From Escherichia coli (GTDB lineage: Bacteria > Pseudomonadota > Gammaproteobacteria > Enterobacterales > Enterobacteriaceae): 64,000 nucleotides of DNA. Positions 57,139 through 62,049 of this stretch are shown piece after piece. Position numbers and translations under genes: made by a program. The notes beneath the pieces are model-generated. The model did no database searches. It was given only the letters and a program-made list of their open reading frames with translations, and was not told the DNA's origin. The stretch lies in the NCBI RefSeq assembly GCF_003334305.1, contig NZ_QOWS01000005.1; one strand, 5' to 3'. The first letter of the stretch is position 1. The number at the start of each line of letters is the position of its first letter.

Positions 57139-59565
57139 TTAAACCTTTTCGATCTGGACAAGATTGCTGTGCGACGGGTTTCCCTTTGCCAGCGGTGAAG
57201 GGCGGTGAGAGGTCAGAATATTGATACTGCCGCCGTGATCGACCCGGTCACCAAACATATCCGCTTTAAGCCACGCACCTTGCCCGATGGCGGTAACGCC
57301 AGGCAGAATACGCGGAGTCACTTTTGCGGCAATCAGCATTTCTCCATTATTGTTAAATACCCGCACGGTATCGCCATGACGGATACCGCGTGCCTGAGCA
57401 TCAATGGGGTTGATCCACACCTCTTGTGGGCAGGCCTGCTGTAACACATCAATATTGCCGTAGCTGGAGTGGGTACGCGCTTTGTAATGGAAGCCCGTTA
57501 ACTGCAGTGGATAGGTTTTCCGCAGGGGATCGTCCCAGCCATCAAAACCTGGGGTATACGCAGGAAGGGGATGAATAATTTCATCTTTTTTCAATTCCCA
57601 GGTATCTGCAATCTTCGCCAGTCGTTCAGAATAAATTTCGATTTTCCCCGAAGGTGTTTTCAACGGGTTTGCCTGGGGATCTTCACGGAATGCGCGGAAA
57701 GCGACGTAGTGTTCTTCCGGGCATTTTTTCTTAAAGATCCCGGTCGTTTTCATCTCCTCGTAGTCGGGCATCTCAGGGTTACGTTCCTTCGTTTTCGCAT
57801 GGAGATATTTGATCCATTCATGCTGACTGCGACCTTCAGTAAAGGTTTGATAAACGTCTGGTCCTAAGCGTTTGGCGACTTCACTCAGCATCCAGTAGAT
57901 GGGTTTGCGTTCAAATTTTGCAGAGGTTGCGGGTTGGGCGAGGATCACATAGCCCATATTCCCTGCAGATTCATGAGAGATAAGGTCTTCTTGCTCTGTT
58001 GGCATCAGGTCGGGCAACAGGATATCGCAATACTTAGCCGAGGCCGTCATGAAGTGGTCAATGCCAACAATCATCTCGCACTTGCTGTCATCCTGAAGCA
58101 CCTCATGGGTGTGATTGATGTCGCCATGTTGATTGATCAATGTGTTACTGGCGTAGCACCATAAAAACTTGATGGGGACATCCAGTTTTTCTTTTCCACG
58201 AACACCATCACGGGTCGCGGTCATTTCCTTACCATGGTCGATGGCATCTGTCCATGTAAAGACGGAAATCTGCGTTTTAACAGGGTTCTCAAGCATCGGG
58301 AACCATTCTACCCCCAGATCCCAGCTACCTTCGCGTACACCTGAGTTGCCGCCGTTTATGCCGACGTTACCGGTGAGAACGGAAAGCATGGCAATAGCGC
58401 GGGACGTTTGCTCGCCGTTGGAATGTCGTTGTGGCCCCCAACCCTGACAAATATAAGCAGGTTTTGCTGAACCGATCTCTCGTGCCAACTGGATAATTTT
58501 TTCTGCCGGGATGCTGGTGATTTTTGCTGCCCATTCCGGCGTTTTAGCTATGCCGTCAGGCCCTTCGCCCAGAATATAGGCTTTATAATGCGCGTTACGT
58601 GGTGCGTTGGCGGGCAGAGTTTTTTCATCGTAACCAACACAATATTTGTCGAGAAATGGCTGATCGACCATGTTTTCAGTAATCAGTACCCAGGCAATCG
58701 CACAGGCCAGTGCGCCATCGGTGCCTGGGCGAATGGGCAGCCATTCATCTTCACGCCCGGCAGTTGTGTCGTTATAACGTGGATCGATGACGATCATGCG
58801 TGCGTTTGAACGTTCGCGGGCTTGCTCGACGTAGTAAGTGACACCACCGCCGCTCATCCGCGTTTCTGCCGGGTTATTTCCGAACATAACGACCAGTTTC
58901 GTATTGGCGATATCATCCGGGCTGTTGCCATCATTGGCACCGAACATATAACTCATTGCGGCACTGATCTGTGCGGTACTGTAGCTGCCATAGCGACTGA
59001 GAAAACCACCGCAAGAGTTCATCAGACGGTACGGGACGTTTGAGTTGGTGATGTTTCCGCCATCTACGCCTGTTCCGTACAGGACATGTACAGCCTCATT
59101 GCCGTAATCTTTCAGGATCCGCCGAAGATTATCACTGATGGTATCCAGGGCTTCGTCCCAACTTATCCGTTCAAATTTACCTTCACCGCGCTTGCCGACG
59201 CGCTTCATGGGATATTTCAACCTATCAGGATGATTCATCCGTCGGCGGATAGAGCGCCCGCGTAAACACGCTCGAACCTGATGATTACCGTAGACGTCGT
59301 CACCTGTCGTATCAGACTCCACCCAGTACACGGTGTCATCTTTCACATGCAAACGTAACAGACAGCGGCTCCCGCAGTTAACGGTGCAGGAACTCCAGAC
59401 CGCTTTCTCTTCTACCGGAGCCTCTGCCGCCCGGACCATTTGGGAAAATGGCAGAGTGAAAGCACTGCTTGCCAGCGCGAGACTGCCAAGTGCGGAGGTT
59501 TTCATCAGACTTCTACGGCTGATTTCAGCCTTCATGAGCGCCTCTGTGGTATGGATTTTCATCAT
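57139..59565 (-). CDS. ynfF: Tat-exported molybdopterin (DMSO-reductase family) oxidoreductase
   Basis: 808-aa ORF (annotated start may be the second Met, 59562); twin-arginine motif SRRSLMK. Confidence 0.9.
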   Translation of the reverse strand: MMKIHTTEALMKAEISRRSLMKTSALGSLALASSAFTLPFSQMVRAAEAPVEEKAVWSSCTVNCGSRCLLRLHVKDDTVYWVESDTTGDDVYGNHQVRACLRGRSIRRRMNHPDRLKYPMKRVGKRGEGKFERISWDEALDTISDNLRRILKDYGNEAVHVLYGTGVDGGNITNSNVPYRLMNSCGGFLSRYGSYSTAQISAAMSYMFGANDGNSPDDIANTKLVVMFGNNPAETRMSGGGVTYYVEQARERSNARMIVIDPRYNDTTAGREDEWLPIRPGTDGALACAIAWVLITENMVDQPFLDKYCVGYDEKTLPANAPRNAHYKAYILGEGPDGIAKTPEWAAKITSIPAEKIIQLAREIGSAKPAYICQGWGPQRHSNGEQTSRAIAMLSVLTGNVGINGGNSGVREGSWDLGVEWFPMLENPVKTQISVFTWTDAIDHGKEMTATRDGVRGKEKLDVPIKFLWCYASNTLINQHGDINHTHEVLQDDSKCEMIVGIDHFMTASAKYCDILLPDLMPTEQEDLISHESAGNMGYVILAQPATSAKFERKPIYWMLSEVAKRLGPDVYQTFTEGRSQHEWIKYLHAKTKERNPEMPDYEEMKTTGIFKKKCPEEHYVAFRAFREDPQANPLKTPSGKIEIYSERLAKIADTWELKKDEIIHPLPAYTPGFDGWDDPLRKTYPLQLTGFHYKARTHSSYGNIDVLQQACPQEVWINPIDAQARGIRHGDTVRVFNNNGEMLIAAKVTPRILPGVTAIGQGAWLKADMFGDRVDHGGSINILTSHRPSPLAKGNPSHSNLVQIEKV

Positions 59566-62049: not shown

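What the first reader, a model, noticed from the sequence alone, without database searches (positions are those of the whole stretch)
57139..62049. Tandem paralogs ynfE and ynfF, two 808-aa Tat-exported molybdoenzymes, upstream of ynfG-ynfH-dmsD
Two adjacent same-strand ORFs of identical length have clearly related protein sequences and long stretches of recognisably similar DNA. Both begin with twin-arginine signals (SRRTLVK and SRRSLMK), and they are followed by a 4x[4Fe-4S] subunit, a membrane anchor and the Tat chaperone DmsD. This is a duplicated catalytic subunit within one operon; the substrate specificity of each copy is not evident from sequence, and the direct repeat is a substrate for homologous recombination.
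Basis: partly seen in the sequence, partly recalled or inferred. Interest (0 to 1): 0.35.

Follow-up and report, generated by a model that had tools for sequence, protein, structure and literature searches.

The report
Known E. coli ynfE/ynfF paralog pair
This is the well-known E. coli ynfEFGH-dmsD selenate/tellurate reductase operon, whose two catalytic genes are ancient (not recent) tandem duplicates; the only fresh point is that wild strains occasionally recombine them into a single hybrid gene.

Summary
Two 808-codon ORFs lie on the minus strand at 59623-62049 (ynfE) and 57139-59565 (ynfF). They are 71% identical in protein and 70% in DNA, both carry twin-arginine signals, and ynfG, ynfH and dmsD follow. 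The window is E. coli chromosome, and the locus is present in 5421 of 5426 complete genomes. It is the annotated, FNR-activated ynfEFGH-dmsD selenate/tellurate reductase operon, so it is already known.

The duplication is ancient. Synonymous sites are saturated (pS 0.71), dN/dS is about 0.1, and distinct YnfE and YnfF clades span several genera. YnfF carries a clade-conserved change in an active-site loop: Arg to Asn/Lys plus a short (4-5 residue) deletion.

Ten of 5426 complete genomes carry an exact 2484-bp in-register deletion that leaves one intact YnfE::YnfF hybrid. Public assemblies show at least seven distinct E. coli crossover points, in identity tracts of only 5-14 nt, and similar hybrids occur in Salmonella. 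Out-of-register fusions also occur. A 580-nt internal segment of ynfF is missing from 12% of genomes. I found no report of the hybrids in the held literature. Interest is low.

The parts
59623..62049 (-). ynfE, 808 aa: Tat-exported Mo-bisPGD/[4Fe-4S] catalytic subunit (selenate/tellurate reductase subunit YnfE)
   Evidence: ORF. RefSeq annotation of the identical locus. NF041885 selenate_YnfE scores 1795 bits against a cut-off of 1675, while the YnfF model fails its cut-off.
57139..59565 (-). ynfF, 808-codon ORF (RefSeq start at the second ATG, 59562, giving 807 aa): paralogous catalytic subunit
   Evidence: ORF. NF041884 selenate_YnfF scores 1772 bits against a cut-off of 1650, while the YnfE model fails its cut-off. 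71% identical to YnfE.
59566..59622 (-). 57-nt ynfE-ynfF spacer with a weak Shine-Dalgarno-like AGTGAG just before the ynfF ATGATG. The repeat period from ynfE to ynfF is 2484 nt.
   Evidence: Sequence read directly. The spacer with its two gene ends is present once in 5290 of 5426 genomes.
61999..62019 (-). YnfE twin-arginine motif S11-R-R-T-L-V-K17
   Evidence: Translation. DmsD binding to the YnfE and YnfF signal peptides is reported in PMC5203670.
59500..59520 (-). YnfF twin-arginine motif S16-R-R-S-L-M-K22 (808-codon numbering)
   Evidence: Translation.
61762..61884 (-). YnfE FS0 [4Fe-4S] cysteine group C56-x3-C60-x3-C64-x31-C96. The YnfF equivalent (C60, C64, C68, C100) lies at 59266-59388.
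   Evidence: Three-way alignment with DmsA: all four Cys are invariant. Positions counted from the translations.
61462..61464 (-). YnfE Ser196 codon, the predicted Mo ligand. The YnfF Ser196 codon lies at 58978-58980.
   Evidence: The YSTAQI motif starts at residue 195 in both proteins. YnfE Ser196 aligns with Ser147 of Rhodobacter DMSO reductase 1eu1. That Ser147 is the Mo ligand comes from my own knowledge of the literature.
61510..61557 (-). YnfE active-site loop G165-R180 (GGNMTRSSPSASAVKR). The YnfF counterpart at 59026-59061 reads GGNITNSNVPYR: Arg170 becomes Asn174 and the loop is shorter by 4 residues (BLASTP) or 5 (MAFFT).
   Evidence: Alignments. The YnfF signature is conserved in Providencia, Aeromonas, A. 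rossii and [Enterobacter] lignolyticus. The loop aligns with the Tyr114/Trp116 loop of 1eu1.
60486..61360 (-). Central part of ynfE (gene nt 690-1564) containing all seven mapped E. coli in-register crossover points. The partner region in ynfF is 58002-58876.
   Evidence: Junction mapping on fixed E/F differences. Clustering and identity statistics.
56511..57128 (-). ynfG, 205 aa, 4x[4Fe-4S] electron-transfer subunit
   Evidence: TIGR02951 scores 265 bits against a cut-off of 214. 94% identical to DmsB.
55655..56509 (-). ynfH, 284 aa, membrane anchor / quinol oxidase subunit (DmsC family)
   Evidence: RefSeq annotation. 58% identical to DmsC. PF04976 DmsC is recorded on the same gene in related contigs. 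No NCBIfam hit at 1e-10.
54998..55612 (-). dmsD, Tat proofreading chaperone (RefSeq start; the window ORF extends to 55621)
   Evidence: NF008632 scores 347 bits against a cut-off of 162. RefSeq annotation.
62149..62162 (-). FNR box TTGATatggATTAA (one mismatch to TTGAT-N4-ATCAA), about 40 nt upstream of the start site expected after the TAGACT -10-like hexamer at 62122-62127
   Evidence: Pattern search and sequence. FNR ChIP-seq lists ynfEFGH-dmsD as directly activated, with the site at -40.5 (PMC3688515).

Best explanation
The region is the E. coli ynfEFGH-dmsD operon.

Shown here:
- ynfE and ynfF are tandem paralogs of the DmsA/YnfE/YnfF family.
- Each has a twin-arginine signal, the four-cysteine FS0 motif and the conserved Mo-ligand serine.
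- They are followed by one shared iron-sulfur subunit (YnfG), one shared membrane anchor (YnfH) and the chaperone DmsD.
- A near-consensus FNR box sits upstream of ynfE.

From the literature:
- FNR switches the operon on anaerobically.
- DmsD binds both signal peptides.
- Deleting ynfEF abolishes selenate reduction.
- YnfE carries most of the selenate activity and YnfF little.

Inferred:
- YnfE and YnfF are alternative catalytic heads. Each is exported by Tat with YnfG and docked on YnfH, giving two isoenzymes that draw electrons from menaquinol.
- Both copies have been kept under purifying selection since an ancient duplication.
- The clade-conserved change in YnfF's active-site loop (Arg to Asn/Lys plus a short, 4-5 residue, deletion) suggests a different substrate preference rather than pure redundancy.

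At 70% DNA identity the two genes still occasionally recombine in register. This deletes exactly 2484 bp and leaves a single intact YnfE(N-terminal)::YnfF(C-terminal) hybrid gene.
For: Identity of the locus:
- The window is 100% identical to E. coli strain A7, and the locus is found in 5421 of 5426 complete genomes.
- RefSeq annotation matches.
- Each protein passes only its own curated NCBIfam cut-off.

Paralogy and age:
- 71% amino-acid and 70% nucleotide identity; third-position identity 47%.
- pS 0.71 (dS about 2, saturated), dN 0.21, dN/dS about 0.1.
- Orthologs form separate clades. YnfE orthologs from E. albertii, Kluyvera, Enterobacter, Lelliottia, Kosakonia and Citrobacter are 84-90% identical to E. 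coli YnfE. YnfF orthologs from [Enterobacter] lignolyticus, Providencia, A. rossii and Aeromonas are 76-80% identical to E. coli YnfF, and Salmonella P0021 is 92% identical.
- The Salmonella pair is also 71% identical (PMC5203670).

Cofactor residues: FS0 cysteines and Ser196 are conserved.

YnfF loop signature: conserved across genera.

Regulation: FNR box and ChIP-seq site at -40.5 (PMC3688515).

Function: PMC5203670, PMC12724226, PMC10609526 and PMC12096835.

Hybrids:
- The split-query survey finds 10 genomes with the 2484-bp deletion.
- Each is a clean single crossover: 762/762 and 473/473 informative sites.
- Seven distinct junctions have been mapped.
- All sit between ynfD and ynfG.
- Salmonella has comparable hybrids.
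Against: - No biochemical assay exists for either enzyme (stated in PMC5203670), so the different-substrate inference rests only on the sequence of one loop.
- ynfF is frequently broken. A 580-nt internal segment is missing from 664 of 5426 genomes, and a 2026 pangenome study ranks ynfE and ynfF among the most pseudogenized metabolic genes (PMC13322260). This argues that at least YnfF is dispensable in many E. coli lineages.
- Enterobacter cloacae manages with a single YnfE-type gene, srnA (PMC12724226).
- Whether any hybrid protein is active is unknown.
Confidence: 0.9

Rival explanations
1. A recent tandem duplication whose two copies are still essentially redundant. This is the age implied by the first reader's refutation test.
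For: High protein identity (71%) and the same ORF length. Either gene is described as a selenate reductase isoenzyme (PMC12724226).
Against: Synonymous sites are saturated: pS 0.71, and identity at fourfold sites of conserved residues is 38%. The E-F divergence is nearly as large as that of either protein from DmsA (67-68%). Separate YnfE and YnfF clades exist across genera. The Salmonella pair shows the same 71% (PMC5203670).
Confidence: 0.02
2. In E. coli, YnfF is a dispensable, decaying back-up copy rather than an isoenzyme with its own role. The pair persists only because loss is slow.
For: 664 of 5426 genomes lack a 580-nt internal ynfF segment (example pseudogene in L002). Many in-frame and out-of-frame fusions and IS or prophage disruptions occur. 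YnfF 'does not contribute greatly' to selenate reduction (PMC5203670). High pseudogene frequency is reported in PMC13322260.
Against: dN/dS between the paralogs is about 0.1. The YnfF-specific loop is conserved from E. coli to Aeromonas. Salmonella YnfF (P0021) is 92% identical to E. coli YnfF overall and mostly 92-98% per 60-column window, higher than the 84-86% between YnfE orthologs of comparable genera (Citrobacter, Enterobacter) or the 84.3% that PMC12724226 gives for SrnA against Salmonella YnfE. About 88% of complete genomes keep the ynfF segment.
Confidence: 0.25
3. The single-gene hybrids are assembly or annotation artefacts (collapsed paralogs), not real alleles.
For: Several hybrids are known only from one short-read assembly each.
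Against: Paralogs at 70% identity do not collapse in assembly. The type-1 hybrid is identical in 8 complete genomes: seven from two sources named in PMC11169474 (U.S. wastewater, ECONIH4; a Canadian meat plant, the six 0H strains) and one clinical isolate from Virginia (CAVP776). Type 2 is present in 2 complete genomes. Each shows one clean switch with 0 conflicting sites against suitable parents. The flanking genes are contiguous.
Confidence: 0.03
4. The in-register hybrids arise by microhomology-mediated replication slippage (RecA-independent), not by homology-guided (homeologous) recombination. They appear to be in register only because in-frame full-length products are the ones that survive and get annotated.
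For: Junction identity tracts are only 5-14 nt, well below the roughly 20-30 bp usually needed for efficient RecA exchange (my own knowledge). The tracts are slightly longer than a uniform model predicts (mean 8.9 against 5.6 nt, P = 0.048). Out-of-register fusions with no junction homology also exist.
Against: Two junctions sit in 5-nt tracts, and matches of that length between two 2.4-kb genes are overwhelmingly out of register (arithmetic estimate: thousands of pairs; at k = 8 half of the shared k-mer pairs are already out of register). Yet at least 7 independent E. coli events are exactly in register. None uses the longest tracts of 17-20 nt. All fall in the most similar third of the gene.
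Confidence: 0.35

Closest known systems
E. coli K-12 ynfEFGH-dmsD operon (b1587-b1591), the YnfEFGH selenate/tellurate reductase
   Same: Same genes, order, strand arrangement and neighbours (ynfD, ynfC and speG upstream; clcB downstream). The locus is 99.1% identical in DNA to K-12-derived and BL21 genomes. It has the FNR site at -40.5 (PMC3688515).
   Different: Only allelic differences. The window matches strain A7 at 100%.
E. coli DmsABC dimethyl sulfoxide reductase
   Same: Same three-subunit architecture and the same chaperone, DmsD. DmsA is 67-68% identical to YnfE and YnfF, DmsB is 94% identical to YnfG, and DmsC is 58% identical to YnfH. The FS0 cysteines and the Mo-ligand serine are conserved.
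   Different: DmsABC has one catalytic gene instead of two and sits at a separate locus. The assigned substrates differ: S- and N-oxides for DmsABC, selenate and tellurate for YnfEFGH (literature). YnfF, but not YnfE, departs from DmsA at the residue equivalent to DmsA Arg178 and in loop length.
Enterobacter cloacae SrnABCD selenate reductase
   Same: SrnA is a YnfE ortholog (86% identical to E. coli YnfE) and complements an E. coli ynfEF deletion (PMC12724226).
   Different: The operon has a single catalytic gene and no YnfF copy. It is a natural single-copy variant in a neighbouring genus.
Hybrid genes formed by unequal recombination between diverged tandem paralogs (general phenomenon)
   Same: A deletion of exactly one repeat period leaves a 5'-copy1::3'-copy2 chimera. 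This is seen here in at least 7 E. coli junctions and in several Salmonella proteins.
   Different: Here the partners are only about 70% identical, and the exchange points have 5-14 nt of identity. The reciprocal triplication was not detected in 5290 genomes.

Membership tests
DmsA/YnfE/YnfF family (TIGR02166), type III DMSO-reductase-family catalytic subunits | Whole-protein score above the curated family cut-off | tested here: met
   TIGR02166 scores 1398 bits (YnfE) and 1286 bits (YnfF) against a cut-off of 778.
DmsA/YnfE/YnfF family (TIGR02166), type III DMSO-reductase-family catalytic subunits | N-terminal twin-arginine (S/T-R-R-x-F/L-x-K) signal | tested here: met
   SRRTLVK and SRRSLMK, each followed by a hydrophobic stretch and an A-x-A-like site.
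DmsA/YnfE/YnfF family (TIGR02166), type III DMSO-reductase-family catalytic subunits | FS0 [4Fe-4S] cysteine group (C-x3-C-x3-C-xn-C) and the Molybdop_Fe4S4, Molybdopterin and Molydop_binding domains | tested here: met
   The cysteines are invariant in YnfE, YnfF and DmsA. PF04879, PF00384 and PF01568 are precomputed for the 99.5%-identical P0015 and for the hybrids.
DmsA/YnfE/YnfF family (TIGR02166), type III DMSO-reductase-family catalytic subunits | Serine ligand to molybdenum | tested here: met
   Ser196 in both proteins aligns with DmsA Ser205 and with Ser147 of 1eu1. Metal ligation itself cannot be tested here.
YnfE ortholog group (NF041885) versus YnfF ortholog group (NF041884) | Score above the model-specific 'exception' cut-off for one group only | tested here: met
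   The upstream ORF scores 1795 against 1675 on the YnfE model and 1477 against 1650 on the YnfF model. The downstream ORF scores 1772 against 1650 on the YnfF model and 1481 against 1675 on the YnfE model. The neighbour-joining tree agrees.
Selenate/tellurate reductase (functional class) | Catalytic reduction of selenate or tellurate that depends on these genes | not testable with these tools
   Literature only. An E. coli ynfEF deletion loses selenate reduction (PMC12724226). YnfE is the main contributor in Salmonella (PMC5203670). Tellurate reduction is known here only from the citation of Fujita 2021 in PMC12096835; that paper is not held.
Three-subunit complex iron-sulfur molybdoenzyme operon with a dedicated Tat chaperone | Adjacent genes for a four-cluster ferredoxin subunit, a DmsC-type anchor and a NarJ/DmsD-family chaperone | tested here: met
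   ynfG (TIGR02951), ynfH (58% identical to DmsC; PF04976 on the same gene in related contigs) and dmsD (NF008632).
Recent tandem duplication | Low synonymous divergence between the copies, and absence of separate orthologs in related genera | tested here: not met
   pS 0.71, which is saturated. Separate clades exist across genera.

The most novel reading that the evidence does not exclude
The ynfE-ynfF pair is a recurrent natural recombination site. It produces a graded series of intact YnfE(N)::YnfF(C) hybrid molybdoenzymes, with at least 7 crossover points in E. coli and more in Salmonella. At least some of these hybrids would be functional and tolerated or favoured, for example the one carried by seven of the eight ST399 'naturalized' wastewater/meat-plant genomes listed in PMC11169474. 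That would provide a ready-made domain-swap series for locating what determines substrate specificity in this enzyme family. I found no report of these hybrids in the held literature.
Probability: 0.25. Interest if true: 0.4.

Novelty: already known. Interest (0 to 1): 0.18.

Why it matters
The finding itself re-identifies a curated operon, so nothing changes for the field. There are three modest points of value.

1. It corrects the idea that the duplication is young. Both copies have been kept under purifying selection across several genera.

2. It identifies a conserved loop difference next to the active site. This gives a concrete, testable hypothesis for why two catalytic subunits share one electron-transfer module, a question that remains biochemically unanswered because no in vitro assay exists.

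3. It shows that tandem genes only about 70% identical still recombine in register in nature, at 5-14-nt identity tracts. This is relevant to how diverged tandem paralogs are lost or homogenised. It is also a warning for pangenome pipelines, which label these hybrids generically or as ynfF.

Tried and rejected
- Gene conversion as the reason for the 94% YnfG-DmsB identity: rejected. Third-codon identity is only 51% and the longest exact run is 26 nt, so this is constraint, not conversion.
- Reciprocal triplication product: not found. The ynfE-3'/spacer/ynfF-5' junction gives 5291 places in 5290 genomes, and only 5290 of those places are chromosomal.
- Microhomology at the out-of-register deletion junctions (L002, L009, L010, P0012, P0003): none detected, or at most 3 unassigned nt. 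My automated junction printout was confused by small spurious HSPs, so I read only the two main HSPs.
- K-12 as parent for the type-1 hybrid left 10 conflicting sites. These were resolved by using strain CX21 as parent.
- Rfam scan of the whole window: no family at gathering threshold.
- Primary papers: Fujita 2021 is not held. A search for the DmsA R149C mutant literature returned nothing. Their content is therefore cited only through papers that are held, or marked as my own recollection.
- A search for the provenance of strain 'JCC-EE' found nothing.
- I did not run a GTDB-wide locus scan or a structure prediction. The cost was not justified for an already-known locus.
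Full report
**Observation**

The ORF list shows two 808-codon ORFs on the minus strand at 59623-62049 and 57139-59565, separated by 57 nt. BLASTP between them gives 71% identity (566/801), 85% positives, 1229 bits and E = 0. A codon-aware DNA alignment gives 69.7% nucleotide identity.

Both proteins begin with twin-arginine motifs: SRRTLVK in the upstream protein and SRRSLMK in the downstream one. Three genes follow on the same strand:
- a 205-aa protein with four Cys groups (56511-57128);
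- a 284-aa membrane protein (55655-56509);
- a DmsD-type chaperone (54998-55612).

There are two small qualifications. RefSeq starts ynfF at the second ATG, giving 807 aa, so the 'identical length' is partly an ORF-calling coincidence. And the DNA similarity is diffuse: the longest exact in-register match between the two genes in this window is 17 nt.

**What it is**

The 7.4-kb locus matches E. coli strain A7 at 100% and is found in 5421 of 5426 complete E. coli genomes. There it is annotated ynfE, ynfF, ynfG, ynfH and dmsD, flanked by ynfD, ynfC and speG on one side and clcB on the other.

Curated NCBIfam models separate the two copies:

| ORF | YnfE model (cut-off 1675) | YnfF model (cut-off 1650) |
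|---|---|---|
| upstream | 1795 bits | 1477 bits |
| downstream | 1481 bits | 1772 bits |

Both ORFs exceed the family model TIGR02166. YnfG passes TIGR02951 and DmsD passes NF008632. YnfH is 58% identical to DmsC.

A near-consensus FNR box, TTGATatggATTAA, lies at 62149-62162. It is about 40 nt upstream of the start site expected after a TAGACT hexamer. This matches the FNR ChIP-seq assignment of a site at -40.5 for ynfEFGH-dmsD (PMC3688515).

**Cofactor and active-site residues**

A three-way alignment with E. coli DmsA (fetched) shows the FS0 cysteine group C-x3-C-x3-C-x31-C to be invariant. It also shows a conserved YS(T/S)AQI motif.

YnfE Ser196 aligns with Ser147 of Rhodobacter DMSO reductase 1eu1. 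That Ser147 is the Mo ligand comes from my own knowledge of the literature. It also aligns with DmsA Ser205. This corresponds to the 'Ser176' of the older DmsA numbering, an offset of 29 that I recalled from memory. The offset is consistent with the residue identities I recall for old positions 148, 149, 176, 178 and 179 (the residues around 177/178 and 205-208 are visible).

The clearest local difference between the paralogs is the loop just upstream. YnfE reads GGNMTRSSPSASAVKR, as DmsA does (MTRS). YnfF reads GGNITNSNVPYR: Arg becomes Asn, and the loop is shorter by 4 residues in the BLASTP alignment or 5 in the MAFFT alignment. This loop aligns with the Tyr114/Trp116 loop of the Rhodobacter enzyme.

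**Age of the duplication**

| Measure (YnfE vs YnfF) | Value |
|---|---|
| Third-codon-position identity | 47% |
| Identity at fourfold sites of conserved residues | 38% |
| Nei-Gojobori pS | 0.71 (dS about 2, saturated) |
| dN | 0.21 |
| dN/dS | about 0.1 |

YnfE and YnfF are barely closer to each other (71%) than either is to DmsA (67-68%).

A search with YnfF, followed by an identity matrix and a neighbour-joining tree, shows two clades:
- YnfE orthologs from E. albertii, Kluyvera, Enterobacter, Lelliottia, Kosakonia and Citrobacter are 84-90% identical to E. coli YnfE.
- YnfF orthologs from [Enterobacter] lignolyticus, Providencia, Actinobacillus rossii and Aeromonas are 76-80% identical to E. 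coli YnfF.
- Salmonella YnfF (P0021) is 92% identical to E. coli YnfF overall, and mostly 92-98% per 60-column alignment window.

The YnfF loop signature is conserved throughout the YnfF clade, with Asn (Lys in P0055) in place of Arg plus the deletion. The Salmonella pair is reported to be 71% identical as well (PMC5203670).

The duplication therefore predates the divergence of these genera, and both copies have been under purifying selection.

**How it most likely works**

From the literature:
- DmsD binds the signal peptides of DmsA, YnfE and YnfF and is needed for their maturation (PMC5203670, PMC10609526).
- An E. coli ynfEF deletion cannot reduce selenate, and a YnfE ortholog from Enterobacter restores the activity using the E. 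coli YnfG, YnfH and DmsD (PMC12724226).
- In Salmonella, YnfE carries most of the activity and YnfF little (PMC5203670, citing Guymer 2009).
- The pair is also named a tellurate reductase (Fujita 2021, as cited in PMC12096835).

My inference is that YnfE and YnfF are alternative catalytic heads. Each would be exported with YnfG and docked on YnfH. The conserved loop change would give YnfF a different substrate preference. No in vitro assay exists (PMC5203670), so this last step is untested.

**Testing the recombination idea in complete genomes**

I built a split query from two 1300-nt pieces:
- 56289-57588, covering the ynfF 3' end and downstream sequence;
- 61600-62899, covering the ynfE 5' end and upstream sequence.

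The search tool joins the two pieces into one place only if they lie within 1.8 kb of each other. This happens only in fused or single-copy loci.

Twelve of 5426 genomes qualified. Ten of them span 4127 bp instead of 6611 bp, a loss of exactly 2484 bp, which is one repeat period. Each carries one intact 808-codon gene between ynfD and ynfG.

Site-by-site mapping shows two events:
- Type 1 is found in ECONIH4, six '0H' strains and CAVP776. It switches from ynfE to ynfF between gene nt 1146 and 1155. All 473 informative sites agree when strain CX21 is used as the parent.
- Type 2 is found in JCC-EE 7 and FELIX_MS533, which share the same ynfC allele. It switches between nt 690 and 705, inside a 14-nt identical tract, with 762 of 762 sites consistent.

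PMC11169474 places ECONIH4 and the 0H strains in ST399, a 'naturalized' wastewater and meat-plant lineage.

The other two genomes, AZ 191 and FDAARGOS_1285, have out-of-register deletions that leave pseudogenes.

The reciprocal triplication product was not seen: the ynfE-3'/spacer/ynfF-5' junction gives 5291 places in 5290 genomes, of which only 5290 are chromosomal.

**Hybrids in the wider collections**

The protein search turned up many more hybrids.

Five more 808-aa E. coli proteins were mapped at DNA level. Together with types 1 and 2 this gives seven distinct in-register junctions:

| Junction (ynfE nt) | Identity tract (nt) |
|---|---|
| 690-705 | 14 |
| 1032-1038 | 5 |
| 1107-1116 | 8 |
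| 1146-1157 | 8-10 |
| 1371-1377 | 5 |
| 1377-1389 | 11 |
| 1554-1564 | 9 |

None of the junctions uses the longest available tracts of 17-20 nt. The tracts are slightly longer than a uniform model predicts (mean 8.9 against 5.6 nt, P = 0.048). All seven fall within the central 36% of the gene, which is its most similar part (71.5% nucleotide identity; P about 0.01, a post hoc test).

Salmonella proteins P0029, P0033, P0036, P0050, P0053 and P0068 are the same kind of YnfE(N)::YnfF(C) hybrid, with several different switch points.

About ten distinct out-of-register but in-frame fusions of 946-1206 aa also exist, along with one internal duplication within ynfE (P0011, 1220 aa). Two of the fusions are widespread:
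- P0012 joins ynfE nt 978 to ynfF nt 565 and is indexed in 140 collection blocks.
- P0003 joins ynfE nt 1813 to ynfF nt 803 and is indexed in 57 blocks.

Both have essentially no junction homology.

Exact register at tracts as short as 5 nt argues that extended homeologous pairing guides these events. Survivorship of in-frame products, and RecA-independent slippage, cannot be excluded without genetics.

**Dispensability**

A 580-nt internal ynfF segment is absent from 664 of 5426 genomes, whereas the E/F junction is missing from only 136. So roughly one genome in ten carries an internally deleted ynfF like that of JKHS006.

A 2026 pangenome study independently lists ynfE and ynfF among the most pseudogenized metabolic genes (PMC13322260). 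Other disruptions seen include insertions of an integrase-bearing element in ynfE and IS-mediated rearrangements.

**Verdict**

The finding is a correct re-identification of a curated, experimentally studied operon, so it is already known and of low interest. The added value is threefold: the corrected age of the duplication, a concrete candidate loop for functional divergence, and the recurrent natural YnfE::YnfF hybrids. I found no report of the hybrids in the held literature; two full-text searches returned nothing whose title or abstract concerns such hybrids.

Noticed in passing
L003 11816-17754 (strain F1022) and L012 1-5741 (strain ECONIH5); insertion point inside ynfE, corresponding roughly to window 60650-61030: A mobile element encoding a site-specific integrase and a KilA-N protein is inserted within ynfE in at least two unrelated strains, truncating the gene. 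ynfE seems to serve as an integration site.
   Followed up: no
window 56511-57128 (ynfG) compared with L005 3915-4532 (dmsB): YnfG is 94% identical to DmsB in protein, although third-codon positions are only 51% identical. This is far more conserved than the catalytic subunits (67%) or the anchor subunits (58%). It indicates extreme constraint on the shared-type iron-sulfur subunit, not gene conversion.
   Followed up: yes
window 58269-58848 (internal ynfF segment): This 580-nt segment is missing from 664 of 5426 complete E. coli genomes. In JKHS006 and AZ 191 the allele has two internal deletions (580 nt and 274 nt) with no junction microhomology. Which phylogroup carries the allele was not determined.
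   Followed up: partly
hit H8 (NZ_CM125670.1, strain 2022S01-140), ynf locus: An ISEcp1-blaCTX-M-15 unit is inserted inside the ynf locus of a clinical isolate, according to the annotated features under the match.
   Followed up: no
L004 (strain 44) and L011 (strain CX21): In strain 44 an IS1 element sits where the sequence from dmsD across to ydfJ (including ynfEFGH) is missing. In the ST635 strain CX21, ynfF is broken by IS66 and IS30 with an inversion. The locus is a frequent target of IS-mediated damage.
   Followed up: partly
protein P0071 (811 aa, Logan assembly, organism unknown): This homolog has a YnfF-type active-site loop and N-terminal part but a YnfE-like C-terminus (88-89% identical to YnfE over the last ~100 residues). 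It may be an F-to-E mosaic, that is gene conversion or the reciprocal product, in another taxon.
   Followed up: no
protein P0011 (1220 aa, E. coli): An internal in-frame partial duplication within ynfE itself (YnfE 1-690 followed by YnfE 278-808). It shows that rearrangements at this locus are not limited to E-F exchanges.
   Followed up: no
window 62214-62236, minus strand: An inverted repeat, GCCGGAT-N7-ATCCGGC, lies just downstream of the ynfD stop codon and upstream of the ynfE promoter. It is probably the ynfD terminator.
   Followed up: no
window 1-64000: No Rfam family reaches its gathering threshold anywhere in the 64-kb window.
   Followed up: yes
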